A stretch of DNA of 64,000 bases from Cyanidioschyzon merolae (lineage: Eukaryota). The translations under genes were made by a program, and so were the position numbers. Location: NCBI GenBank assembly GCA_000091205.1, contig AP006495.2; one strand, 5' to 3'. Shown piece after piece: positions 6,320 through 53,226 of this stretch; within the stretch, counting starts at the first letter, position 1, and the number at the start of each line of letters is the position of its first letter. The notes under the pieces are model-generated. The model was not told where the DNA came from, searched no databases, and was given only the letters and a program-made list of their open reading frames with translations.

Positions 6320-7010
6320 TCAGATCAACGGAATCAAGATGATTCGCGATACCCTCGAACAAGCTTTCCTATAATAACGGGAATCATAATCCAATGTATA
6401 TGGACATGCCTCCGGTGCTCTGGTCTCCGCACTGCAGCACGCTCGAACCAAGTGCGCTTCAAGTTCTCGATCTCTCCGTTCCAAGCGACGCCAGGGCGCA
6501 GCGATTGACGCCGTCGGATGTACGAAGAAAAATGCTCCATATCGGCAGTTGAAGAATTGCTCACAAGCTTATGAAAAAATTCACTTATCATGCTGCGTCA
6601 GTGAATCGATCCCGTTCGGGAAACGATTTCCTATGCCTTTGCGGCGATCGACGAAACGTACTTCGACGCCTGCATGATACCTGTCACGGGATTTGCTCCC
6701 AAAGGCTCTCGTCTCTTCTGTTTCCATGAGAAAGCGTCTTGGACTCCGACTTGAGTCATCGCAGCGATCGCTTCTTGTGGAGCGTGCGTCACTGTTTTCC
6801 ACGAAGAAAGTGGATTCGTATCGACATTTCTCGACTTGTTCTCCAACCTTGATTCTTCTTTCGGTATCTGTTTCATCTTGGCCAACATCATGTTCCAGAA
6901 ATCATCTATCCGCTGAAAAACCATGAGCTCGTGTGTGCAGCTGACAGAGTACATGGCAAGCGGATCGCCCAAATCAGTACTGTGACCCATTGGTACGGCA
7001 CCTCGGGCAC
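6320..7010. repeat. Solo copy of the ~700-bp 'tail' segment of the dispersed repeat family. It is homologous to 13980-14650 downstream of Fanzor-like copy c.
   Basis: Shared blocks read in both places: 'caagatgattcgcga', 'cttcaRgttYtcgatctctcYgttYcaaggcgac..gcgcagcgattSRYgcc', 'gtcatcgcagcgatYgc', 'atcgcccaRaWcagtactgKtRSSS'. Confidence 0.6.
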
Positions 7011-7061
7011 GTAAGCGGAGGCGGGAATCGGGGAGTCTTCTGTGCCCGCCACGGGCATGCA

Positions 7062-7433
7062 GCGAGCGATGTGGCAAGCGCTCACACGGCATGAGGCAGC
7101 CTCCGGAGGACGTCAAGGCGGACACACAGGAAAGTTCCTGACCACACTCAAGTAGCGAGCGATGTGGCAAGAGCTCACACGGCATGAGGCAGCCTCCGGA
7201 GGACGTCAAGGCGGACACACAGGAAAGTTCCTGACCACACTCAAGTAGCGAGCGATGTGGCAAGAGCTCACACGGCATGAGGCAGCCTCCGGAGGACGTC
7301 AAGGCGGACACACAGGAAAGTTCCTGACCACACTCAAGTAGCGAGCGATGTGGCAAGCACTCACACGGCATGAGGCAGCCTCCGGAGGACGTCAAGGCGG
7401 ACACACAGGAAAGTTCCTGACCACACTCAAGTG
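7062..7433. repeat. 93-bp minisatellite, 4 tandem units.
   Basis: Unit 'gcgagcgatgtggcaagRgctcacacggcatgaggcagcctccggaggacgtcaaggcggacacacaggaaagttcctgaccacactcaagta' begins at 7062, 7155, 7248 and 7341. Units are contiguous with no spacers. Confidence 0.95.
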
Positions 7434-7898
7434 TCATCGCCGCGACAGGCGCACCGAGTGTCCATCCAAAGAAGCTTCAGTGAGCAAGCGCAACGTCGAT
7501 CGCAGCTTCCGCCTTTAGGTAAACAATGCGATAAAAAAGCAGCAGTCGGAAACAACGAGCATCGGCACGCTTTATCTGCTATGAGTGTCTATCGACAGTT
7601 GCTCATAGAGCTGGAGCCCCAGAAGAGACCGACGTTCCTAAAAGTTGGAGATAAGACGCGGGAAACCGTAGCAGTCGAAAAAAAGTTTCGCATACGCAGG
7701 TATTGAGGATAGCAAGAAGATGCCGCAAACACGAGGGCGTGCGTTCGGGTCCGAGGAACCCCCCCCCCCCGGTTCCAAGCCACGGCGCTGTGGATGTTCC
7801 AGGACGCTGCGCGTTGCGAGTCCGCTCTGCGAGCGCGCATTTTCCGTGTCCCAAGTATACAAATTCATATAGTTCTGTCCTGACATGTACTACACGGA

Positions 7899-11415: not shown

Positions 11416-12345
11416 TCATGAACGCGTGGATGCGGCTTTGGATTCCATGGAACGTCGCGCTGAGCCGCTCGCTTTTCGAGATGTATGCAACGTGCTGCCG
11501 CGACCTGCCGTGCTTGAAGTCGCCTGGACCGCAACCATGGCGTGCTCGGGGGGTATCGGCTGGGCACCGACCAGATCCGGACCCGCAAAGGCCTCCGCCC
11601 TCTCCACTACCGAGTCGCGTTGGGCGTACAGTCGAGCCTGTTGCATCGATGCTGACAGCGGGTCGACACTCGTGGTCGATGGTCGCTCGCTGGCTCCAGC
11701 ATCACCGCGTCGTCGCGCTTTGACTCGCTCAAACTGCTCCATTTCCGCATCGAGCTGGGTGCGTCGTTCGCCCAGCTGCCAGGCATACGGAAACGGTTGT
11801 GATAGAGATGGATCGACTGGTAGATAATTCCCGTCGTTGTCGATTTCTTCGTAGTTCGTACCTGGTGGCAGGCATGTCGCCACCGCCTCCAAAAGCAACT
11901 GCGCAGTTCTCTCGTGTACGACGGGTTTTGGTGCTTGCTCAGCCACCGAGTCCACAGAGTCCAGACCAAGGTCCGTAAAAATACGAGCACCGGCCTCTAG
12001 ACAGCGCTCAAGCACTGGTAACCGCTCAGGTCTGTGGTTACAGATAAACAGCAGCTGCCACGCGTTCAGATCACCAGACTCGAGAAGCGGTCGCAGACGC
12101 TCCTGTAAGAGCAGCAAATGGTCGACCTGTTGAGCTGCAGGTGAAAAGTACTGCAAGCCGGAGCCAAAGTTCGCTACCGGGATGATCTCCTGGTCACACG
12201 CTCGCGGAACGTACGGTCGCGGCAGCGTTGTGACTCCCTTCACAACAGCGGCTACTCGCTGTGCCTGCTGCTCGTGCAACACTCGTATCATAGCACACAC
12301 CTCGGCGTCGCTCCATACTGCATACCATGGGTCGAGGACGCGCAT
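11416..12345 (-). CDS. Hypothetical protein, 309 aa. A Rossmann-like alpha/beta N-terminal half is followed by a low-complexity C-terminal tail.
   Basis: ORF only; no family recognised ('IPVANFGSGLQYFSPAAQQVDHLLLLQERLRPLLESGDLNAWQLLFICNHRPERLPVLERCLEAGARIF'). Confidence 0.35.
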   Translation of the reverse strand: MRVLDPWYAVWSDAEVCAMIRVLHEQQAQRVAAVVKGVTTLPRPYVPRACDQEIIPVANFGSGLQYFSPAAQQVDHLLLLQERLRPLLESGDLNAWQLLFICNHRPERLPVLERCLEAGARIFTDLGLDSVDSVAEQAPKPVVHERTAQLLLEAVATCLPPGTNYEEIDNDGNYLPVDPSLSQPFPYAWQLGERRTQLDAEMEQFERVKARRRGDAGASERPSTTSVDPLSASMQQARLYAQRDSVVERAEAFAGPDLVGAQPIPPEHAMVAVQATSSTAGRGSTLHTSRKASGSARRSMESKAASTRS

Positions 12346-35930: not shown

Positions 35931-36695
35931 AACTGAGTGGGAGCAGCTCTTCACCGATAGAATCGGCGAAGAGCTTCAACGCAACAGTAAGCGTAAATTA
36001 CCATGCAATCCAATGGAAGGACGTTGCCAGAAGCCGGAAAAAGTCTTCGATCATTCGACGAAATAGATCCTGTTGTATGAGCCTTATCTACGGGCCAGTA
36101 CTGAGGCCGCCAAATGAATCCACTGCAGCTAGATCAGAGGACGAAGAATACCTCGTTCCGATCGAGATCGATCGTCGATACAACGGGCGCCCTGCTCCTC
36201 GAATACCCATCTACAGTCCAACTATTTCGTCCGAGGCAAGCCGCACCAACTGAAGAAGAAAACCAACGTCCCTACACTGTGCACGGATCGCAACTTTCCA
36301 GTAAAGATGTCGTTGCTGTTTCGATGGAAATGGCCGTGATAGAACTAGAGTATTTTTCCGGACCGTATCCCAGTGTTCCCAGGATCACACGAACAAGCAG
36401 TAGAGCAGCAGAGACGCCCCCAGCTGCTACCAGGATCGCTTCTGCTTTCCCGAAACTATTCAACCGTGAACTTTTCTACCATTGATTTGAACCACGCTCT
36501 GACAAAACCAGCTTTTGAAGCGGTAAGCATCCAGCTCCTTCTTTCAGTATTCCTCATCCATCTGAGTACTACGGTACACCTGACGACCCCACGAAGGAAT
36601 GCAGTCCTCCTGGCACGATTCCGGAGAGCATCCATCCTACCGGCGATTTGTCTATAATCCAGAATCCGCATGACATAAGTGATGTCAATCGCCTG

Positions 36696-36728
<33 letters not shown>

Positions 36729-36815
36729 GGTGGAACGCAATTGACATGACAAGCGCCGACGCAGACGCGACGGACGGCAGAGAACGTCTGATGCACCACT
36801 CGTTTCGGTGCCCCG

Positions 36816-39800
36816 GTGGACTGCTCATCGGTGCAACGCTCTTCAAGTTCGTGTTCGTGCGTATCACGAGCACTGGTACACACTCGGGAGGACTGCGTTT
36901 TGTGGAGAGGGCTATCGAAGAGTGTGCGCTCTCGGACACGGGCAATAAGAGCGCTCGGTTGCTGTTCTTCTATTCTGTTGTTGTTGTTGTTGTTGCTATT
37001 GTTGTTGCACCTTGCTTCTGGTGACACACACCGAGTTTTCGCAAAAGGCAACGTAATGCCAGGCAGCACACAGCGTGGTGGTTGGCGGGAACAACGACCA
37101 GCGCTTTCTCGAGGTACGCCGGTGAACCAGCGACGCTGGTCAGCGTGGCTTCCGCGACTCTCCTCATTGGTCGATGAGCAGCCCGTCCAGGACGTGCTGG
37201 ATGAGGTCCAGCAGCTGCTACTCGAACGCAGCACCTGGGTCACCTATGAGGACGGGGCGCGAGGCGGTGCATCCGGGCGCGGTGCAAACAAGCCGCCGGC
37301 GCCTTTTTCGTCTGCTGGCTGGGAACGGCTCCAGACACTCCTCGAAGTTGAAAAGGCCCTGGTTTCGGCACTGGGCCATCACTGCGAAGACGTGCGAGAT
37401 CGCGCCGTCGTCTTGCTCAGTGTGCTGTACGATGGGCACCCGCTGCAACTCGCCGGTGATGCGCTTCCTGTAGCCGTGACTTGTGTCGGAGAACCGGTCA
37501 CAGTTTGCATTCCATTTGCGAGCGAAGCAGATCGCGAGGCCTTCCAACCACAACGTGCCGTGTTGCGTCTGTTTCGGCCCTGGCCAAACAAAAACAAGAA
37601 TGGATATACTCGTGAAGTGCTGAGCAAACAGGCAACGAATAGTCTGCAGCTCGGAGGTAGTCGACCTCCGCGTTCGCCCAGCTCAGATGGCCCGCAACAA
37701 CGAAAACCGTCGTTGGCTACAGAGACAGGCCCGAATGCGACAAGCACGTCGCCTTCACGAGAGCAGACCGCTCAAGACTGGACAAACGCGGAAGAGGAAG
37801 CGGAACAGGAGCTTCCCGTAGGCACACACGCACTCTGGGCCGCTTGTCATGGACACTGGCAAAGCTACCCCATCAGCGTGCAGGGCGAGAGCATCCTCGT
37901 TCATCTGGGCAGTTTCGAGCAGCCGGGCTTTTACGACTGGTACATCGCTCGAGCTTCGGATGGTGTCGCCTCTCCGCTGGTAATCGCTCATCCGGTTGTC
38001 TATGCCGATGTACCGGGTATGGACTTTAGACGCCTGCGCGGCCGCTTCATCGTCCAGCCGAGGGGAGCGCGAGCCCATCGCCTCTATGAGATACCTGTTG
38101 ACCAGGTTGGCGCTCGCTGGGATGCCACCACAGGGGCGCTACTCTCCAGGGGCTCCTTCGATGCGGTGCAGGAGCTTCTGCCCCGTCTGGCAGCGAGCGG
38201 TATCACCGGGATATACGTGAGCGGCTGCCTGGAACGTCGCCTCGATGAGCACGAGCCGACACCGCACACCGTTGTCGATCGAGCGATGCCTGCCACGATC
38301 CTCGGCGGGGTGCACAAGTTCCGTCGAATGTGTGCAGAGGCCCGTCGACATCAACTGGCAACCATCGTGGACTGCTTGGATCGAGTGTCGCTGGCTCGAG
38401 CACACCGCCGCTACCGACGCATCGGCTATGTGCGTATTGTGGATGCGAAACGTCAGGTGCCTGCACTACCTCATCCTGGAACAGACTGTCACGAGGTCCA
38501 ATGGGAGGATACCGCTCTCCTGAACTACCGTCGCCTTGAGAGCTGGTATTCGCTCATTGAGGATATTTCGCAGATGGCGACTGAGCACGGTGCTGGCGGC
38601 GTTCGCCTCGACAATGCGCAGTGCGTTCCCTGTGTACTCGCTCCGGACGTTACCGAACTCGCACGTATCGACAACGACGGGATTGCGCACTATGACGACG
38701 AAGAGAAGGCATTTGGCGACGTGGTGCTGGCGAACGTCGAGGGTGGCTACTGGCGCACAGACGCCGCCATCGACGGCTATCCGAATCCTCTGCTGCTGAA
38801 ACTCACCCGCGAAATGTGGCACTGGAACCCCTCGTTCCTGGTTCTTGGTGAATCTCACTTTCATCGCGAGCGCAACCTCATTGTGAGCGGCCTGATTCCC
38901 CATACGCTGCGGGTGGCAACCATACTGGCCGGTATTTCGGGCAAGTCTCTCCGCCGCGATGGTTCCGTGCGCGCTCTCGGGGAGAACAAGCATCCCACTG
39001 TGGACTTTATCGCGCGTCTCTATCGCAATGATGCACATGCGATTCCCTCGGGGGCAATCATGGTCGGGGGCACCTGCTCCGACACCTCGCCCTACCCGAG
39101 TGTGCTCTATGGACGCCGAGCCTGGACCGCAGTCGATATGCTTTGTTTCCTGCCCGATATCCCGCTCTTACTTCTGGGCGAGGAGGATGGACGCGCCTAC
39201 CGCATCAACATGGCATCCGTCTCCCGAGAAGTAGATCCCGACACCAATCTGGAGCTGGAGGTGCCCAAGTCTCCGCGCCTGGGAGGTCACGGCCTGCCGC
39301 GCGGCTCCAGCGTCGCCTCGGGCATGAGCATGCTGCACCTGCAACAAACCAGTATGGGTGACGTACGGCGCCTGAAGCGCTCCGGCTCCCGCGAGACCGG
39401 TCTAGCGCGTCTGTCGAGTACCAACCTGCTGGGACGCAACACAACGAACCGTCGCGCGGACTCGGGAAGCATGTCGGGTGCGGCTGCTGCCATGGTGCGT
39501 TCGCGCTCCACCGAGGATATGCTGAAACTTTCGATTCGCTCGGTGTCAGCGGAGGATATTCGCCAACTCGATCTGGCCGAAGAGGATATTCGACGCGAGA
39601 TTGGTCCACAAGAGGGCTACGACATTCGCCAGATTCGCGGTCACTATGAGCATCGTCTACGTCTGCGGGCATCCTACGAGGCACTTCGCGAAGGACACAT
39701 GGTAGCACTCGTGGTGCGCGAGCAGGCCAAGTACCAGGTACTGGCCTTTGCTCGCTTCACGAGACAGCAAATCGTGCTACTCTTTATCAATGTTCGCGGT

Positions 39801-42266
39801 GGACACGACGGGGCACCGTTTGCCGTTCCCGTTGACACCATCGTAGATCTGCGACCGCTAGCAGAGGCACTTGTTGCGGCCGCTTTTCGAAATGGATGCA
39901 CGTATTTCGGTCCTTGGGATCGCATCATTGAACTGCGGGATTGTTTCACGGGGGCTCGAGAGCCGTCACGCTATGCGTTCGAAGAGTTTCTCTTTCGCCG
40001 CTTGCAGATCACGTTGAAGCCGCTAGAAACGCGGATCCTGGAACTGTGTCCTAGCTCGGAAGCGGCCGAGTCCAGCACCGATCTGCATCAGCAAACCGTC
40101 CAGCGTCTCGACGAAGACGATGAAATGTTGTTGGACGCCCGTGCCAACTGGCTCGCTGGCTACCTCGCTCGACACTGTTACGACTTGAAGGCTTTTGCCC
40201 GAGCGCTCGGCTTTCTCCAAGGCCTGCTTGCGCCCGGTAAGCAGCAACTGACCGAGGCTCGAGCTCGCCATCTGATGTGTGTCTGCCTGCAGCGAACAGC
40301 GCTGCTCGCCGGTGAGCAAGAGTATCCGCCACACGGTTTCCGTGCTGTCTCCGGCGAGCGTCTGCTTGCTTATCTTATGGTGCTGTCGAGTTGTGGAATT
40401 GATGCACTTCGCACCGTTGCACGACGCATCCTCTCCGGGAATCGAATGGGTCCGATCGTGCTCTTCAGTCCGGAGCTCGGTCGTTTCTCGAGCATCGGAG
40501 GTCTCGGTACCATGGTCGATGAACTCTCCAAAGGTCTCGCTGATCTCGGCCTCGACGTGTACGTCATCTCGCCAGCCTATACCTTCAATCGTCGTGGAGA
40601 GACGCGCTATCTCGAACGGGACGGTATTCGCTGGACCCGCAATATCGATGTGCGTATCGGGAACGTTGGTGTCGCCACGCTGGGCATCTTCGAAGGCATT
40701 GAAAACAGTGTTCGTCTGATTTTCTTTGAAAATCACTCGTACTTCCCGCGAGTCTACCAGGATCTGGGCTCTCAGGCGCGCATGATGGAGATGCTGGTCC
40801 TTGCGAATCGGGGAGTGCTTGAAATATGCTGCCACAAGCAGTTGCGACCCAGCCTCTTGGTGACCAACGATTGGATGGGGGGTCTGGTTCCCGCCTACGG
40901 GCGACTGGGCTATTTTGGTGGCTATTTCGACGACACCTGTTTCTTCCATATTGTGCACAACCTTGGCGATGCAGCCTACGAGGGTCGTCTCTACCCGAGT
41001 CCAGCTGAGGCCGGATTCGAGGCCATTCATCAGCTACCTCGCGACATTGTCATTGATCCTACCTGGAATCGCGTCGTTGTGAACCCCAGTCGTGCCGCCT
41101 TCAAGTGTGCGCACAGCTGGGGCACCGTCTCGCCGAGCTACCTGGAGGAGTTGCTCACGAATCACCCACTGCGTCCCGTGATGCGTCTCTGTCGAGCGCC
41201 ATTCGGGACGTCCAACGGTATTCGTGTGCAGGATCGTTTGGCGTTACTGCGTCGGGTAGCGTCGAGCCACGAGGAGGCCAAGAGCGTTCTCCAGAGCAAA
41301 TACTTTGGAGTGACGGATCCGGGGATTCCGGTGTTTGCATTTGTCGGGCGTCTGACGAGTCAGAAAGGGGTGCACCTGATTCTCTCGGCAACAGATGCAC
41401 TGATGAATCTGGCTGGCCCCAGCAAGTGCCAGATCCTCATAGGCGGCATGGCGAACCGGGCGGATCCGTACGGTGCGGACTGTGCTCGACGCTGCAACGA
41501 GCTCAAGCAACGCTACCGGGGGTATTTTTCTGCTGACCCGGATAACTTTTTCCATGATGGACCGTTGGTCAACTTGGGCGCCGACTTTTGCCTCATGCCC
41601 TCGTTGTTCGAGCCCGGCGGCATTGTACAGCAGGAGTTCTTCGTGGTAGGCACCCCGGTGATCGCGTACCGCACCGGTGGCCTGAAAGACACGGTGATCG
41701 AATGGGATCCGGTGGAGCTCACCGGATCCGGGTTCGTATTCCACGAGTATACGATGGATGATTTTCTGGCTGCTTGCAAACGAGCGCTCCGCGTCTACGC
41801 CAAGCCGGACGAGTACCAGCTTCTGCGGGAGTCGACCCGCGAGTTTGTCATTGATGTTGCCCAGGTTGCCGAGGCGTGGTCGCGGGAATTCCATCGGGTC
41901 AAGAACATCATCCCGTGTCGGGATGATGTGTTGGCTCTGGATCTGGAAGCGGTGGCGAGCGAGCTCTCCAGTGCCGTCAAGGATGGTGTTTGTGTACCAG
42001 CGGTGCCCGTGGATATCGATTGGCCCGATGCATCCGCTTCCAGTGTCTCTGTGAAGGGTTCCTTTGATGGCTGGAGTCGTGAATGGCCCCTGCGTCGTGA
42101 CTCAGGCAAAGCAAACGCATGGGAGCGCACGTTCTGGCTACCACCGGGTACCTACGAGATCAAGTACCGCGTGGACGGCGAGTGGCTTGTTCACCCGCAC
42201 AAACCAGTAACGAATACGAGCGGGCTCTTGAATAACCTGCTGGAGGTGCCTCGACAGACCCCATAA
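36816..42266 (+). CDS. Giant multi-domain alpha-glucan synthase. An N-terminal GH13-like (alpha-amylase family, probably degenerate) domain precedes a GT5 starch/glycogen synthase catalytic domain and a C-terminal CBM48 (AMPK-beta-type glycogen-binding) module. Length is 1816 aa; an alternative start is the Met at 37056.
   Basis: GT5 N-terminus 'IVLFSPELGRFSSIGGLGTMVDELSKGLADLGLDVYVISP'. GT5 C-terminal 'FCLMPSLFEPGGIVQQEFFVVGTPVIAYRTGGLKDTVIEW'. GH13 region II-like 'GGVRLDNAQCVP' and region III-like 'LVLGESHF'. CBM48 'VSVKGSFDGWSREWPLRRD...WERTFWLPPGTYEIKYRVDGEWLVHPHKP'. (TTG)n and (GCT)n microsatellites at 36697-37009 lie inside the first 200 bp of the ORF. Confidence 0.85.
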   Translation: MDCSSVQRSSSSCSCVSRALVHTREDCVLWRGLSKSVRSRTRAIRALGCCSSILLLLLLLLLLLHLASGDTHRVFAKGNVMPGSTQRGGWREQRPALSRGTPVNQRRWSAWLPRLSSLVDEQPVQDVLDEVQQLLLERSTWVTYEDGARGGASGRGANKPPAPFSSAGWERLQTLLEVEKALVSALGHHCEDVRDRAVVLLSVLYDGHPLQLAGDALPVAVTCVGEPVTVCIPFASEADREAFQPQRAVLRLFRPWPNKNKNGYTREVLSKQATNSLQLGGSRPPRSPSSDGPQQRKPSLATETGPNATSTSPSREQTAQDWTNAEEEAEQELPVGTHALWAACHGHWQSYPISVQGESILVHLGSFEQPGFYDWYIARASDGVASPLVIAHPVVYADVPGMDFRRLRGRFIVQPRGARAHRLYEIPVDQVGARWDATTGALLSRGSFDAVQELLPRLAASGITGIYVSGCLERRLDEHEPTPHTVVDRAMPATILGGVHKFRRMCAEARRHQLATIVDCLDRVSLARAHRRYRRIGYVRIVDAKRQVPALPHPGTDCHEVQWEDTALLNYRRLESWYSLIEDISQMATEHGAGGVRLDNAQCVPCVLAPDVTELARIDNDGIAHYDDEEKAFGDVVLANVEGGYWRTDAAIDGYPNPLLLKLTREMWHWNPSFLVLGESHFHRERNLIVSGLIPHTLRVATILAGISGKSLRRDGSVRALGENKHPTVDFIARLYRNDAHAIPSGAIMVGGTCSDTSPYPSVLYGRRAWTAVDMLCFLPDIPLLLLGEEDGRAYRINMASVSREVDPDTNLELEVPKSPRLGGHGLPRGSSVASGMSMLHLQQTSMGDVRRLKRSGSRETGLARLSSTNLLGRNTTNRRADSGSMSGAAAAMVRSRSTEDMLKLSIRSVSAEDIRQLDLAEEDIRREIGPQEGYDIRQIRGHYEHRLRLRASYEALREGHMVALVVREQAKYQVLAFARFTRQQIVLLFINVRGGHDGAPFAVPVDTIVDLRPLAEALVAAAFRNGCTYFGPWDRIIELRDCFTGAREPSRYAFEEFLFRRLQITLKPLETRILELCPSSEAAESSTDLHQQTVQRLDEDDEMLLDARANWLAGYLARHCYDLKAFARALGFLQGLLAPGKQQLTEARARHLMCVCLQRTALLAGEQEYPPHGFRAVSGERLLAYLMVLSSCGIDALRTVARRILSGNRMGPIVLFSPELGRFSSIGGLGTMVDELSKGLADLGLDVYVISPAYTFNRRGETRYLERDGIRWTRNIDVRIGNVGVATLGIFEGIENSVRLIFFENHSYFPRVYQDLGSQARMMEMLVLANRGVLEICCHKQLRPSLLVTNDWMGGLVPAYGRLGYFGGYFDDTCFFHIVHNLGDAAYEGRLYPSPAEAGFEAIHQLPRDIVIDPTWNRVVVNPSRAAFKCAHSWGTVSPSYLEELLTNHPLRPVMRLCRAPFGTSNGIRVQDRLALLRRVASSHEEAKSVLQSKYFGVTDPGIPVFAFVGRLTSQKGVHLILSATDALMNLAGPSKCQILIGGMANRADPYGADCARRCNELKQRYRGYFSADPDNFFHDGPLVNLGADFCLMPSLFEPGGIVQQEFFVVGTPVIAYRTGGLKDTVIEWDPVELTGSGFVFHEYTMDDFLAACKRALRVYAKPDEYQLLRESTREFVIDVAQVAEAWSREFHRVKNIIPCRDDVLALDLEAVASELSSAVKDGVCVPAVPVDIDWPDASASSVSVKGSFDGWSREWPLRRDSGKANAWERTFWLPPGTYEIKYRVDGEWLVHPHKPVTNTSGLLNNLLEVPRQTP

Positions 42267-51243: not shown

Positions 51244-53226
51244 GTGGCTTTGTCTGGTGCACCAATGGTACCTGGTGTTGCGTTTTTGGCGTGCCCGGTG
51301 CCGCTCCGATGGCAGGTGACGCATCCAGCGTCCGACGGTACCGCGGCACCTCGTCGGCTGCAGCAGTCACGTCGTTGGGCGGCGCTGTGGCAGCCTCGCG
51401 GAACGCGCACTTGGCTTCAGTGCTCGTCTGCCTCTCTCGACAACTCGAACTTGGGACGGACTGAGCGGTTACGGGGCTCAGTGACGCTGTCCAGTCTGGG
51501 TGATGACTGGGTTGAGGCGTTCACGCGGGCGGTGAACGCACTGCTCGAAAACCCGGAGAGCGACGTACCGAAACAGTTGCTCGAGTCGTTACTGGCTCCA
51601 GATGCCAGATGGAGTGGAGACCTGATTGAACGCGCTACAACGCGGGCGTCCATTATCGACAAACTGGAACGGGCTGTTCACTTCTGGGAGTGCGCTGGCT
51701 GGTACATCCCGCCGAACGGTGTACGGTATCGGACAACGGCGGCGGAGCGCACCACTGCTTCCACCTCCGCGACTATCCACGTGGATATAGAGTTTATGGT
51801 GTCAGGACTGTGGCCTTTACCGTGGCGGCCACGCGTCGCCAGTGCTGGCACCTTATCCGTGGAACTCGAGCTCACAGGTGATGTATCCAGGAGCAGGTTG
51901 CGGGCACGGAATATCAAAGACAGACTCGAACAGGCAACACTGCCGGTTCTCACGCAACTTGTACCGAGTTTGTCAGACTTTGCCGCTGTGTACGTTGCAC
52001 CAATGCCGGAGAACGATGCGGTTTTCCGTCGACGTGCCAGTCAGAGCACTCTGCTGGACGCTTCTGCACAGCGGCCGTCAGCGCTTAAGCGCAGTCCTGA
52101 GTACATCGACGGCAGCCACGAGCAACAACCAAGTGAAACCGCTGCCGCATCGCCACCTGCGACACAAGCAGAGCGTCAGCGCGCGAATACCCTGCCCACT
52201 GGACCTGAGAGCGTAAGCCGCGGTGGTTTTCGTTTACCGCCACGATGCTATCGCGAGCCTCCGTATCGACCGTATGTTGAGTGCTTCCTTCTGCCGGGAA
52301 TGACGCGCCCCGCCTCGATAAAGTCAGCGTCGGGGTCGATGTTTCCTGTATTGCCCGCATTCGTTTTTAACTTTAGTCGATTTCGGAACCGTCTGGTGCT
52401 GGATCCTCAACAGTTCGCCTTTGTAACACCTGTTCAGGTGCGACGCTGGCTCCTCGACGAACTCGACCAGAACGTTGGCGCTCTTCTGGATAGAGCCGAC
52501 TCGGTGCCTGCGCCCCGAGAGGAGCTATATCTTCCCGAAGCGTTCGATGTCTTCGATACTGAGGATCTTTTCGACGAGATTCAAAGTCAGATCGCGAGTT
52601 GGTCGTCTCCTGTTGACGATCATGACGCATCGGTGCTGCAATGGCGCATCCCTGTTCCGATTCGTTTTGGACGAGGAAGGCGGGTTGTTGTTGCACCGCA
52701 CCCGTATGCGGATGCGCTGGGACGGGGTGAAACCCCGTCGGACGAAAACCTGAATGGTGCCCCAACGGGTGCTCAACAGTTTTCCTCTGCAGCGCTTCCA
52801 CGCTCCGTTTTTCGGATTCCGAGCGCAGTCTCTCCGGTTACGGTGGAGCGCTTAGAGCGCACGGGCGCTCCGCCGCTGCCTTCGATATCCGCCAACGGCC
52901 GCGTGCTTGTGCGTTATGCGCTCAGCGAAGGCACGGGGTGTGTATTCTTCGCTCGTCGGTTTCGGGGTATGCTCACACCGGGACGTCTCGCTCGGCTCCG
53001 CTACGACCTGCTGATGGATTTGCGTCTTGCTGGTCGCGTGCCGGCTGGTTGGCTACCCCACGAGTCCCGATGGCGACTTTCTTGTTATGATTGCTCGGTT
53101 GGATTCGATGAAAACGCGGAGATCTCCGTTGCTGTTTACCGCTCGAGTCGCCCGCTGTTTTGTATCTTTGAACTAGCACTTGAGGTGCCGCGGGCTTTCT
53201 CACAGGCAGATACGGCAGCATCGTAA
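51244..53226 (+). CDS. Hypothetical protein, 660 aa, no recognised domain. The N-terminus is presequence-like.
   Basis: Long uninterrupted ORF in a genome where long ORFs correspond to genes. No motif recognised. Confidence 0.4.
   Translation: MALSGAPMVPGVAFLACPVPLRWQVTHPASDGTAAPRRLQQSRRWAALWQPRGTRTWLQCSSASLDNSNLGRTERLRGSVTLSSLGDDWVEAFTRAVNALLENPESDVPKQLLESLLAPDARWSGDLIERATTRASIIDKLERAVHFWECAGWYIPPNGVRYRTTAAERTTASTSATIHVDIEFMVSGLWPLPWRPRVASAGTLSVELELTGDVSRSRLRARNIKDRLEQATLPVLTQLVPSLSDFAAVYVAPMPENDAVFRRRASQSTLLDASAQRPSALKRSPEYIDGSHEQQPSETAAASPPATQAERQRANTLPTGPESVSRGGFRLPPRCYREPPYRPYVECFLLPGMTRPASIKSASGSMFPVLPAFVFNFSRFRNRLVLDPQQFAFVTPVQVRRWLLDELDQNVGALLDRADSVPAPREELYLPEAFDVFDTEDLFDEIQSQIASWSSPVDDHDASVLQWRIPVPIRFGRGRRVVVAPHPYADALGRGETPSDENLNGAPTGAQQFSSAALPRSVFRIPSAVSPVTVERLERTGAPPLPSISANGRVLVRYALSEGTGCVFFARRFRGMLTPGRLARLRYDLLMDLRLAGRVPAGWLPHESRWRLSCYDCSVGFDENAEISVAVYRSSRPLFCIFELALEVPRAFSQADTAAS

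What the first reader, a model, noticed from the sequence alone, without database searches (positions are those of the whole stretch)
36816..42266. Unusual GH13-like + GT5 + CBM48 fusion alpha-glucan synthase
A single 1,800-aa ORF joins three parts: a degenerate alpha-amylase-family domain, a complete bacterial/plant-type starch(glycogen) synthase domain, and an AMPK-beta-type glycogen-binding module. This is not the domain order of plant SSI-IV or of GT3 glycogen synthases. It would fit a cytosolic (floridean-type) starch synthase. The GH13 part may be a non-catalytic glucan-binding or branching-related module.
Basis: partly seen in the sequence, partly recalled or inferred. Interest (0 to 1): 0.6.

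Follow-up and report, generated by a model that had tools for sequence, protein, structure and literature searches.

The report
Known red-algal floridean starch synthase gene
This ORF is the already-known single starch synthase gene (CMM317C) of the hot-spring red alga Cyanidioschyzon merolae; its three-part build (an amylase-like module with a damaged active site, the sugar-adding enzyme and a starch-binding tail) is real, but it is the normal build for this enzyme class in many eukaryotes.

Summary
One uninterrupted frame runs from 36816 to 42266 (+). The only ATG near its start is at 37056, so the protein is probably 1,736 aa. Published qPCR primers for C. merolae CMM317C match inside it, so this is the alga's annotated starch synthase.

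- **GT5 and CBM48:** both pass Pfam cut-offs, and their catalytic and sugar-contact residues are intact.
- **GH13 active site:** it is degenerate. Arg517, Asp519 and Glu599 are kept. The third catalytic Asp aligns to Thr677, and the signature histidines are gone.
- **Distribution:** the same GH13-like + GT5 (± CBM48) build occurs in Galdieria, Gracilaria, Rhodosorus, a gregarine and a dictyostelid. It is therefore typical of the eukaryotic UDP-glucose GT5 glucan synthase, not unusual.

Two side leads emerged. Two bacterial homologues share the GH13–GT5 build and keep canonical GH13 motifs. Red algae also share a Ser/Arg-rich loop with kinase-like motifs.

Verdict: already known gene. The N-terminal module is under-described in the literature I could search. 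Moderate-to-low interest.

The parts
37056..42266 (+). Most likely CDS of starch synthase CMM317C (1,736 aa plus TAA). The mechanical ORF starts upstream at a GTG at 36816.
   Evidence: ORF. Codon 81 is the only ATG in the first 200 codons. Primer matches. Orthologues begin aligning at 'RRWSAWLP' just downstream.
37131..37433 (+). N-terminal helical region (res 26-126) with the conserved motif 'ALGHHxxxVRDRAVVLLxVLYDGH'. It looks HEAT-like; its role is unknown.
   Evidence: AF2 helices 26-35, 42-61, 86-105 and 111-126. E99 and H108 are invariant. Only a sub-threshold Pfam HEAT hint, in orthologue P0016 (E 0.23).
37470..38057 (+). Beta-sandwich in front of the barrel (res 139-334, 'GFYDW' and 'RGRFIVQP' motifs). 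A Cyanidiales-specific disordered insertion interrupts it at res 175-255 (37578-37820).
   Evidence: AF2 strands and the alignment. Searched on its own it gives only generic Ig-like matches, none at E<=0.001, so no specific CBM family is assigned.
38082..39695 (+). GH13-like (beta/alpha)8 barrel with a domain-B-like loop (res 343-880). Signature residues:
- Region I: D439, with R443-V444 in place of Asn-His.
- Region II: G-V-R517-L-D519-N-A-Q522.
- Region III: G598-E599.
- Region IV: S675-D676-T677, on MalZ S-H447-D448.
- Region VII: 'FLPDIPLLLLGEEDG'.
   Evidence: The barrel is the second most conserved part of the protein: 47-49% identity to mesophilic red algae, against 52-60% for GT5.
39270..39539 (+). 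Disordered Ser/Arg-rich insertion (res 739-828) inside the GH13-like module, after barrel strand beta8. At its C-terminal end (res 813-836, 39492-39563) sits the conserved twin motif 'MVRSRS818TEDM ... SIRSVS831AED'. These are candidate basophilic-kinase (AMPK/SnRK1-like) phosphosites.
   Evidence: pLDDT below 50 over 739-828. Composition S16, R13 of 90 residues. The motif is conserved across the rhodophyte clade while the flanks are not. The insertion is absent from bacterial homologue P0093. Phosphorylation is inferred, not shown.
39696..40052 (+). GH13 domain-C-like all-beta domain (res 881-999).
   Evidence: AF2 strands 881-999. The profile matches the start of domain C in maltogenic amylase and MalZ. 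Sub-threshold Malt_amylase_C hints appear in relatives.
40065..40433 (+). Helical linker region (res 1004-1126) between the GH13-like module and GT5.
   Evidence: AF2 helices 1004-1024, 1032-1039, 1044-1058, 1067-1081, 1100-1110 and 1116-1126. It is conserved in relatives, including P0093.
40455..41858 (+). GT5 (GT-B fold) glucan synthase catalytic domain (res 1134-1601). D1272, H1301, R1432, K1437 and E1519 are intact. 'KTGGL' reads 'SIGGL' (S1146).
   Evidence: Pfam PF08323 and PF00534. TIGR02095. PDB GT5 hits. Residue mapping onto E. coli GlgA.
42003..42254 (+). C-terminal CBM48 of the AMPK-beta, SEX4 and Sip2 type (res 1650-1733).
   Evidence: PF16561 at 9.5e-17. The AMPK beta2 CBM scores 4.1e-10, with the Trp, Lys, Trp and Asn positions conserved in the printed alignment.

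Best explanation
This is CMM317C, the single soluble starch synthase of Cyanidioschyzon merolae. It belongs to the eukaryotic GT5 family of UDP-glucose:alpha-1,4-glucan 4-alpha-glucosyltransferases, which make cytosolic floridean starch or glycogen.

**Shown here**
- The C-terminal half is an intact GT-B/GT5 catalytic domain. By family function it adds glucose to non-reducing ends of alpha-1,4 chains.
- It is followed by a CBM48 with intact sugar-contact residues.
- The N-terminal 1,000 residues form a GH13 (alpha-amylase family) fold: a beta-sandwich, a (beta/alpha)8 barrel and a domain C.
- The GH13 catalytic machinery is incomplete. Arg, the nucleophile Asp and the acid/base Glu are kept. 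The transition-state Asp position is Thr, and the region I and II histidines are lost.

**Inferred**
- The GH13-like module no longer works as a hydrolase. It serves as a glucan-binding platform that holds or selects acceptor chains for the attached synthase.
- The CBM48 keeps the enzyme on the growing granule.
- Together these would let one enzyme elongate all chain classes, which fits the 'Swiss-knife' description in PMC6086201.
- The conserved 'MVRSRSxxDM / SIRSVSxxD' motifs lie in a disordered loop of the module and are probably regulatory phosphosites.
- Use of UDP-glucose is taken from the literature on the family, not tested on this protein.
For: **Identity**
- The CMM317C primers match inside the ORF.
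- The closest relatives are Cyanidiales proteins at 63-100% identity, then other red-algal 'starch synthase' proteins.
- The window is a run of uninterrupted housekeeping ORFs, as expected for the nearly intron-free C. merolae genome.

**GT5**
- Pfam and NCBIfam hits.
- Catalytic residues are invariant in all 11 family members compared.
- E-values to plant SSI, SSIV, GBSS and bacterial GlgA are all near 1e-15. This fits a separate eukaryotic GT5 clade, as stated in PMC6086201.

**CBM48:**

**GH13 fold:**

**Degeneracy of the GH13 active site**
- Residue patterns.
- Across 150 family representatives: the region-I His position is V or I in 109 of 117; the Arg is present in 44 of 119; the nucleophile Asp in 73 of 119; the third-Asp column is Asp in only 4 of 87.

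**The module is under selection**
- Barrel identity to mesophilic red algae is 47-49%, second only to GT5.
- The family has 710 representative clusters.

**Function of the class**
- Deleting the T. gondii SS gene was used to show that SS is critical for amylopectin synthesis (PMC8205521). Its membership of this family was not tested here. That apicomplexans have the family is shown by the gregarine P0047.
- C. merolae studies treat CMM317C as the SS gene (PMC9424615).

**Soluble protein:** no transmembrane-like segments.
Against: - No biochemical data on this protein were accessible. Donor specificity and the role of the N-terminal module are inferred.
- Red-algal copies keep Arg517, Asp519 and Glu599 almost invariantly (15 of 17). 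Cyanidiales also carry Asp676 next to the missing Asp position.
- The AF2 loop 675-679 has pLDDT below 50. A shifted register that restores a full triad in this species cannot be excluded, so residual transglycosylase chemistry remains possible.
- The preceding beta-sandwich could not be assigned to any CBM family.
- No phosphoproteome evidence was found for S818 or S831.
Confidence: 0.75

Rival explanations
1. The enzyme is bifunctional. The GH13-like module is still an active transglycosylase (a 4-alpha-glucanotransferase or a chain-joining or branching-type activity) that remodels the chains made by the attached GT5 domain. This is analogous to the model for fungal Ags1.
For: - Arg517, Asp519 and Glu599 are conserved in red algae, and the barrel is highly conserved.
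- Cyanidiales have Asp676 adjacent to the expected third-Asp position, in a low-confidence loop.
- Fungal GH13 domains that lack the catalytic His are proposed to be transglycosylases (PMC12305055).
- Bacterial homologues P0093, P0126 and P0138 carry canonical region II and IV motifs (P0093 also region III) in front of GT5. The ancestral enzyme was therefore plausibly bifunctional.
Against: - The best alignment puts Thr677 (Leu in most red algae) at the transition-state Asp position. That column is Asp in only 4 of 87 relatives.
- The region I His is never present, and the region II His is Gln in this clade.
- C. merolae encodes separate branching and debranching enzymes, CMH144C, CMI294C and CMS197C (PMC9424615).
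Confidence: 0.15
2. The N-terminal region (HEAT-like helices, beta-sandwich, pseudo-GH13) is mainly a protein-interaction and regulatory scaffold. It would bind glycogenin, branching enzyme or isoamylase, or receive kinase input through the Ser/Arg loop, rather than bind glucan.
For: - The HEAT-like helices and the helical linker are conserved.
- A kinase-like twin motif is conserved in a disordered loop.
- Starch accumulation in C. merolae is regulated post-transcriptionally and through phosphorylation of glycogenin and GWD (PMC8232737; PMC11986951).
Against: - No interaction data exist.
- The residues that stay conserved (Arg, Asp and Glu at the barrel's catalytic face, and the region VII motif) are those that contact sugar in GH13 enzymes. 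That fits glucan binding better.
- This rival is not exclusive of the main explanation.
Confidence: 0.09
3. The long ORF is an artefact: two genes (a GH13 gene and a GT5 gene) joined by an assembly or frame-preserving error.
For: None was found. The only weak hint is that Pfam does not call the GH13 part in this copy.
Against: - The same collinear architecture occurs in many independent genomes and transcriptomes: Cyanidiococcus, Galdieria, Gracilaria, MMETSP transcripts, Gregarina, Acytostelium and two bacterial contigs.
- A near-identical copy exists in a JGI metagenome (P0001).
- GC3 is uniform.
- The linker region itself is conserved.
Confidence: 0.01

Closest known systems
Eukaryotic GT5 UDP-glucose glycogen/starch synthase (the red-algal and glaucophyte 'Swiss-knife' enzyme; Galdieria 'starch synthase' XP_005707965)
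   Same: This is the same family and, within red algae, the same gene. It shares full-length collinearity, the GT5 catalytic residues and the C-terminal CBM48. It is a single-copy soluble synthase for cytosolic starch.
   Different: Nothing essential differs. Cyanidiales add an 80-residue disordered insertion in the beta-sandwich and have 'TCSDTS' where other red algae have 'TCTHLS' in region IV. The literature I could search describes the family only by its GT5 domain. I found no description of the GH13-like module.
Fungal alpha-1,3-glucan synthase Ags1/Mok1 (GH13 + GT5 + membrane domain)
   Same: It has the same N-to-C order, GH13 then GT5, in one polypeptide. Its GH13 part also lacks typical hydrolase residues (PMC12305055).
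   Different: In Ags1 the GH13 domain is extracellular, and a membrane channel is part of the model. Its proposed product is alpha-1,3-glucan built on an alpha-1,4 primer. The protein here has no transmembrane segment, ends in a CBM48 and makes alpha-1,4 storage glucan. Whether the two fusions share an origin was not testable, because no Ags1 sequence was available.
Bacterial GlgA and plant starch synthases SSI-SSIV and GBSS (GT5, ADP-glucose)
   Same: They share the GT-B fold, Pfam PF08323 and PF00534, and identical catalytic Asp, His, Arg, Lys and Glu.
   Different: Identity to E. coli GlgA is only about 27%. The Lys of KTGGL is Ser, and the adenine-stacking Tyr355 is not conserved. The enzyme is no closer to SSIII/IV than to the other classes. 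By established knowledge, plant SSIII carries N-terminal CBM53 repeats and SSIV coiled coils, not a GH13 module.
GH13 enzymes with an N-domain, barrel and C-domain (TVAII, neopullulanase, MalZ, GlgE, TreS)
   Different: The third catalytic Asp and the signature histidines are missing. A roughly 55-residue insertion follows beta4, and a 90-residue disordered insertion follows beta8. No GH13 subfamily is favoured.
Non-catalytic GH13 family members (plant ISA2; rBAT/SLC3A1)
   Different: Those are separate polypeptides that pair with another subunit. Here the pseudo-GH13 is fused in cis to a synthase.
AMPK beta, SEX4 and Sip2 type CBM48
   Same: PF16561 hit, 98-aa module, carbohydrate-contact residues conserved.
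   Different: It is attached to a glucan synthase rather than to a kinase scaffold or a phosphatase.

Membership tests
GT5 glycogen/starch synthase (CAZy GT5) | [quoted passage not shown] | tested here: met
   116.6 bits against 22.7, and 50.2 bits against 26.4. TIGR02095 scores 158.6 bits, which is below its subfamily cut-off of 328. This is a divergent member.
GT5 glycogen/starch synthase (CAZy GT5) | Catalytic residues equivalent to E. coli GlgA D137, H161, R300, K305 and E377 | tested here: met
   D1272, H1301, R1432, K1437 and E1519 are invariant in all 11 family sequences aligned.
GT5 glycogen/starch synthase (CAZy GT5) | N-terminal K-T-G-G-L motif with the Lys, as in ADP-glucose enzymes | tested here: not met
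   The motif reads S1146-I-G-G-L, and the position is Ser or Thr in the red-algal clade. This fits a different donor, but it is only a correlation.
Eukaryotic GT5 UDP-glucose glucan synthase (floridean starch synthase) | Orthology to named red-algal starch synthases, and identity with CMM317C | tested here: met
   Primer matches. Full-length collinear alignment with the Cyanidiococcus, Gracilaria and Rhodosorus proteins. The Galdieria starch synthase P0022 matches the N-terminal profile end to end.
Eukaryotic GT5 UDP-glucose glucan synthase (floridean starch synthase) | Preference for UDP-glucose as donor | not testable with these tools
   Stated for the family in PMC6086201. It needs an enzyme assay.
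GH13 (alpha-amylase family) | Pfam Alpha-amylase (PF00128) match | tested here: inconclusive
   There is no hit for this protein. Orthologues P0015, P0005 and P0016 pass the gathering score at the equivalent position (30.1 and 23.6 bits against 22). Bacterial relative P0093 scores 63.6 bits.
GH13 (alpha-amylase family) | (beta/alpha)8 barrel with a domain B loop after beta3, followed by an all-beta domain C | tested here: met
GH13 (alpha-amylase family) | The four invariant residues: Arg and the nucleophile Asp (region II), the acid/base Glu (region III) and the transition-state Asp (region IV) | tested here: not met
   R517, D519 and E599 are present. The region IV Asp position aligns to T677, and only the neighbouring D676 is acidic. 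That column is Asp in 4 of 87 relatives. Caveat: this loop has low model confidence.
GH13 (alpha-amylase family) | Conserved histidines of regions I, II and IV | tested here: not met
   Region I has R443-V444 in place of Asn-His. The region II His is Q522. The region IV His is D676 here, but His in most other red algae.
CBM48 (AMPK-beta type) | PF16561 match and conserved carbohydrate-contact Trp, Lys, Trp and Asn | tested here: met
   61.4 bits against 26.8. The alignment to AMPK beta2 CBM shows 'DGW', 'IKYRVDGEW' and 'LNN' on 'NNW', 'YKFFVDGQW' and 'INN'.
Fungal Ags1-type alpha-glucan synthase | GH13 then GT5 in one chain, plus a multi-pass membrane domain | tested here: not met
   The domain order matches, but there is no transmembrane-like segment. 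The maximum KD(19) is 1.61, in beta-strand segments. The C-terminus is a CBM48.

The most novel reading that the evidence does not exclude
The N-terminal module is the remnant of an ancestral bifunctional GH13-GT5 enzyme. That enzyme still exists in bacteria with canonical GH13 catalytic motifs.

**Evidence for bacterial relatives**
- P0093 lies in a neighbourhood with SmpB, an Era-type GTPase and a MiaB-like radical-SAM gene.
- P0126 lies in a neighbourhood with MerR, SpoIIE and OmpA genes.
- P0093 is collinear over its full length with eukaryotic members at 26-31% identity.

**What would follow**
- The GT5 glucan synthase regarded as being of eukaryotic ancestry would have multi-domain prokaryotic relatives.
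- In red algae the GH13 half would have become a pseudo-enzyme: a phospho-regulated glucan-handling platform. That could explain how one synthase replaces the five plant isoforms.
- A bolder sub-reading is that in Cyanidiales (R517, D519, E599, D676) it still has cryptic transglycosylase activity.
Probability: 0.3. Interest if true: 0.6.

Novelty: already known. Interest (0 to 1): 0.33.

Why it matters
The gene itself is a known, annotated enzyme, so finding it adds nothing new.

What is under-explored is that about 60% of the protein is not the synthase. That part is a conserved, strongly constrained GH13 pseudo-enzyme, flanked by a HEAT-like region and a helical linker. It also carries a conserved kinase-like motif pair in a disordered loop.

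Red algae make semi-crystalline starch with a single soluble synthase, where plants need five. A built-in glucan-handling module is a concrete, testable explanation for that. C. merolae can be genetically engineered: knockout and overexpression strains are reported in PMC11986951 and PMC8232737.

The bacterial homologues with canonical GH13 catalytic motifs give a handle on two questions. One is what the ancestral enzyme did. The other is where the eukaryotic GT5 synthase came from. The fungal Ags1 fusion may also be related, but that remains untested.

Tried and rejected
**Searches that gave nothing**
- Pfam on the N-terminal 755 aa alone gave no family. phmmer of that stretch against the PDB gave 0 hits even at E<=10. 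Only profiles and fold comparison reveal GH13.
- The word-indexed homologue searches with the N-terminal region or its alignment returned only 5 proteins each. The exhaustive representative search was needed.
- The afdb50 fold library was not available.
- The beta-sandwich modelled alone (res 86-345) gave only generic Ig-like Foldseek hits, none at E<=0.001. A CBM34 or CBM48-like assignment for it was dropped.
- The supplements of PMC11986951 do not mention CMM317C, so there is no phosphosite evidence.
- The Ball 2011 review is not held. Red-algal, Toxoplasma and general starch-evolution papers do not describe the N-terminal module.

**Readings considered and rejected**
- The low-confidence part of the hhalign alignment to MalZ placed MalZ region II on 'GYWRTD' (res 564-569). 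I rejected this for two reasons. The AF2 strand order puts 'GVRLD' at the end of beta4, after domain B and helix alpha3. The alignments to GlgX and GlgB put their region II on 'GVRLD'.
- A specific affiliation of the GT5 domain with SSIII/IV was rejected. E-values to SSI, SSIV, GBSS and bacterial GlgA are all about 1e-15, and PMC6086201 describes a separate eukaryotic GT5 clade.
- An Ags1-like membrane enzyme was rejected because there are no transmembrane segments.
- A fusion artefact was rejected (see the rival explanations).

**Placing the bacterium that encodes P0093 failed**
- The alignment had no stretch conserved enough to search with.
- A single-protein scan found no relative.
- A neighbouring radical-SAM (MiaB-like) gene matched only at 27-28% identity.
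Full report
**What is in the sequence.** The window is eukaryotic. The only ATG in the first 200 codons is codon 81, and the nearest in-frame upstream stop is at 36789. The real CDS is therefore most likely 37056..42266, giving 1,736 aa. I use that numbering below; add 80 for ORF numbering. GC3 is even along the ORF, 0.57-0.71. The long antisense ORFs listed inside it were not examined and are probably chance ORFs.

**Which organism and gene.** The closest proteins are a near-identical JGI metagenome protein, Cyanidiococcus yangmingshanensis (80%), another Cyanidiales protein named 'glycogen synthase' (79%) and further red-algal proteins. A paper on C. merolae isoamylases gives qPCR primers for 'SS (CMM317C)' (PMC9424615). 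The forward primer matches the window at 38420-38439 with no mismatch. The reverse primer matches at 38515-38534 with one mismatch. Both lie inside the ORF, and neither is expected by chance. The ORF is therefore CMM317C, the starch synthase gene of C. merolae 10D or a very close strain. The rest of the window fits this. It is a row of uninterrupted housekeeping ORFs: alanyl-tRNA synthetase, an SNF2 ATPase, the ribonucleotide reductase large subunit, TFIIS, aladin, CCB1 and others. No tRNA genes were found.

**The GT5 and CBM48 parts.**
- Pfam gives Glyco_transf_5 (1.9e-33), Glycos_transf_1 (2.8e-13) and AMPK1_CBM (9.5e-17), all above their curated cut-offs.
- NCBIfam glgA models match end to end but below their equivalog cut-offs. 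This is a divergent GT5.
- Aligned with E. coli GlgA, the catalytic D137, H161, R300, K305 and E377 correspond to D1272, H1301, R1432, K1437 and E1519. They are invariant in all family members compared.
- The Lys of 'KTGGL' is Ser, and the adenine-stacking Tyr355 is not conserved.
- E-values to solved plant SSI, SSIV, GBSS and bacterial GlgA are all about 1e-15. The domain is not specifically SSIII/IV-like.
- This agrees with PMC6086201. That paper describes a GT5 UDP-glucose transferase 'of eukaryotic ancestry' in red algae, glaucophytes and many heterotrophs. It places this enzyme as far from bacterial GT5 enzymes as those are from GT3, and calls it a single 'Swiss-knife' enzyme sufficient for starch synthesis.
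- The C-terminal module aligns with the AMPK beta2 CBM at 4.1e-10, with the carbohydrate-contact Trp, Lys, Trp and Asn conserved. It also matches SEX4 and Sip2.

**The GH13 part: real, but only visible with profiles and folds.** Pfam does not report Alpha-amylase for this protein. Only faint NCBIfam hints exist. A single-sequence search of the PDB finds nothing. The following evidence establishes the assignment:
- The region is conserved along its whole length in all relatives.
- Orthologues at 44-47% identity pass the PF00128 gathering score at the equivalent place: 30.1 bits for P0015, 23.6 bits for P0005 and P0016, cut-off 22.
- A profile of nine family members hits 91 PDB sequences at E<=10, and the 60 listed are all GH13 or alpha-amylase-family enzymes. 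The matches fall in three collinear places: strands beta1-beta3, the beta8 motif 'FLPDIPLLLLGEE', and the start of domain C.
- hhalign against E. coli MalZ gives 85-87% probability.
- The AlphaFold model of residues 1-1130 (17-sequence alignment, pTM 0.71) shows eight alternating strands and helices. Domain B sits after beta3, and an all-beta domain spans 881-999.
- Foldseek gives 647 PDB matches at E<=0.001. The top 50 are all GH13: TVAII, GlgE, neopullulanase, cyclomaltodextrinase and TreS, with best E 5.6e-18.

**State of the GH13 active site.**
- Region I keeps the Asp (D439) but has Arg-Val where GH13 has Asn-His.
- Region II is G-V-R517-L-D519-N-A-Q, so the invariant Arg and the nucleophile Asp are present. 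The downstream His is Gln.
- Region III keeps G598-E599, the acid/base.
- Region IV: the alignment to MalZ puts S675-D676-T677 on S-H447-D448, anchored on both sides ('...SPYPSVLYGRR' on '...TARFKTLLGRD'). The transition-state Asp position is therefore Thr here and Leu in most red algae. The preceding His is Asp in Cyanidiales and His elsewhere.
- Loop 675-679 is poorly modelled, so a register shift that would use D676 cannot be excluded for Cyanidiales.
- Over 150 representatives of the wider family the machinery is clearly not maintained. The region I His position is V or I in 109 of 117. The Arg is present in 44 of 119, the nucleophile Asp in 73 of 119, the Glu in 84 of 114, and the third-Asp column is Asp in 4 of 87.
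- The barrel is nevertheless the second most conserved part of the protein: 47-49% identity to mesophilic red algae, against 52-60% for GT5 and 37-42% for the CBM48. It is a constrained pseudo-enzyme, not decaying sequence.

**Other anatomy.**
- In front of the barrel lie a helical region with the invariant 'ALGH...VRDRAV..L.VLYDGH' motif and a beta-sandwich with 'GFYDW' and 'RGRFIVQP'.
- Modelled and searched on its own, the sandwich matches only generic Ig-like folds. I do not assign it to a CBM family.
- A 90-residue Ser/Arg-rich disordered loop (res 739-828) is inserted after barrel strand beta8.
- At its end, the twin motif 'MVRSRS818TEDM...SIRSVS831AED' is conserved throughout the rhodophyte clade, while the rest of the loop is not.
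- The first motif fits the AMPK/SnRK1 consensus: hydrophobic at -5, basic at -3, hydrophobic at +4. That consensus is from my own knowledge. Phosphorylation is an inference, and I found no phosphosite data.
- A helical linker (res 1004-1126) joins the module to GT5.
- There are no transmembrane-like segments.

**How widespread the build is.**
- An exhaustive profile search finds 710 representative clusters with this N-terminal module, 121 of them at E<=1e-30. Many are 1,400-2,500 aa long.
- Named or placeable members are Galdieria sulphuraria and G. partita 'starch synthase', Gracilaria domingensis 'Starch synthase', Rhodosorus marinus, MMETSP transcripts, a Gregarina species and the dictyostelid Acytostelium subglobosum.
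- Nearly all the long members scanned have GT5 behind the module. Many also carry the CBM48, including the gregarine. The dictyostelid and some others lack it.
- The 'unusual' fusion is therefore the standard architecture of this enzyme class.
- Functional support for apicomplexan starch synthases comes from Toxoplasma. Deleting its 330-kDa SS gene was used to show that SS is critical for amylopectin synthesis (PMC8205521). I did not test whether that protein belongs to this family.

**A side finding: bacterial relatives.**
- P0093 (1,299 aa) is encoded on a 135-kb NCBI contig. Its neighbours are tightly packed SmpB, an Era-type GTPase, MiaB-like radical-SAM and M48 peptidase genes. Its GC content is similar to its flanks.
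- It has the HEAT-like motif, the sandwich, a bona fide PF00128 hit (63.6 bits) with canonical 'GFRIDVAHA', 'IGES' and 'IGNHDE', then the linker and GT5 (160.9 bits). It has no Ser/Arg loop and no CBM48.
- It is collinear over about 1,300 residues with eukaryotic members at 26-31% identity.
- Its GT5 half is closer to the eukaryotic family (172-213 bits) than to E. coli GlgA (134 bits), yet it keeps 'SKRGGLADV'.
- A second member, P0126, also has canonical 'GIRFDSAHA' and 'GNHDE'. It sits among MerR, SpoIIE, OmpA and response-regulator genes.
- A 2024 review of prokaryotic alpha-glucan enzymes lists TreS-Mak and GlgB-MalQ fusions, but no GH13-GT5 fusion in the part of the text held.
- I could not place the bacteria taxonomically.

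**Interpretation.**
- Shown: the identity of the gene, an intact GT5 domain, an intact CBM48, a GH13 fold with an incomplete catalytic set, and strong conservation of that module.
- Inferred: the module binds and positions alpha-glucan chains for the attached synthase rather than cutting them. The CBM48 tethers the enzyme to the granule. The conserved loop motifs are regulatory phosphosites. The donor is UDP-glucose, from the literature on the family.
- Main rival: the module retains transglycosylase chemistry, as is proposed for the His-poor GH13 domain of fungal Ags1 (PMC12305055). The conserved Arg, Asp and Glu, and Asp676 in Cyanidiales, keep this open. The family-wide loss of the third Asp argues against it.

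**Novelty and score.** The gene and the enzyme class are known, so novelty is 'already known'. The N-terminal pseudo-GH13 module, its loop motifs and the bacterial homologues with canonical GH13 motifs are not discussed in the literature I could search. They are reasonable leads but not a discovery of a new kind of system. Interest 0.33.

Noticed in passing
L003:3001-6900 (NCBI GCA_054042725.1, contig JBPKUO010000021.1) and L006:6001-10890 (Logan SRR28369932_416686): Two bacterial contigs encode full-length collinear relatives of the eukaryotic synthase (P0093, P0126). Both have a HEAT-like N-terminus, a GH13 module with canonical catalytic motifs and a GT5 domain, but no CBM48. The neighbours are clearly bacterial (SmpB, an Era-type GTPase and a MiaB-like gene; MerR, SpoIIE and OmpA genes). 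The organisms could not be placed.
   Followed up: partly
window 39492-39563 (res 813-836): The twin motif 'MVRSRSTEDM ... SIRSVSAED' sits in an otherwise variable disordered loop and is conserved across red algae. It resembles AMPK/SnRK1-type phosphorylation sites. No phosphoproteome support was found.
   Followed up: partly
window 36693-36727 and 36976-37007: Trinucleotide repeats (CTG)12 and (TGT)~11 lie just upstream of the likely ATG at 37056. They account for the poly-Leu stretch in the mechanical ORF and the poly-Gln and poly-Asn stretches in the antisense ORF.
   Followed up: no
window 38515-38534: The published CMM317C reverse primer differs from the window at one base (GCGAAGG... against GCGACGG...). 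This is either a strain or assembly difference or a typo in the paper.
   Followed up: no
P0017 (labelled 'MAG: Acidobacteriaceae bacterium', 2.7-kb contig): This 'alpha-amylase family protein, partial' is a fragment of the same N-terminal architecture and ends in 'NKLGPIA', the start of the GT5 domain. Its closest relatives in my set are eukaryote-like, so the contig may be mis-binned.
   Followed up: partly
P0161 (4,169 aa) and P0156 (1,641 aa), representative-library proteins: Odd architectures contain this module. P0161 combines methyltransferase, Alpha-amylase, the GH13-like module, GT5, HD_assoc and ATP-grasp. P0156 combines fucose pyrophosphorylase with Alpha-amylase. They may be gene-model fusions or real multi-enzymes.
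   Followed up: no
P0039 (Acytostelium subglobosum, 2,136 aa): The dictyostelid member has 'GVDGVRIDSGHT', 'FLAEVYW' and an 'NFDNHDTEF' motif. It may therefore retain a complete GH13 catalytic set. The hmmalign register for region IV was uncertain.
   Followed up: partly
P0012 (EukProt ctg_101.g44, 1,402 aa): The N-terminus matches the family, and the sequence then turns into Ala/Arg/Gly-rich text. It looks like a frameshifted gene model of a GC-rich orthologue.
   Followed up: no
window 51244-53226 (+), 6631-7437 (-), 11416-12345 (-): Three sizeable ORFs (660, 268 and 309 aa) have no Pfam match at E<=0.001.
   Followed up: no
window 37578-37820 (res 175-255): An 80-residue disordered, Ser/Pro/Thr-rich insertion splits the N-terminal beta-sandwich. 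It is present only in the Cyanidiales sequences.
   Followed up: no
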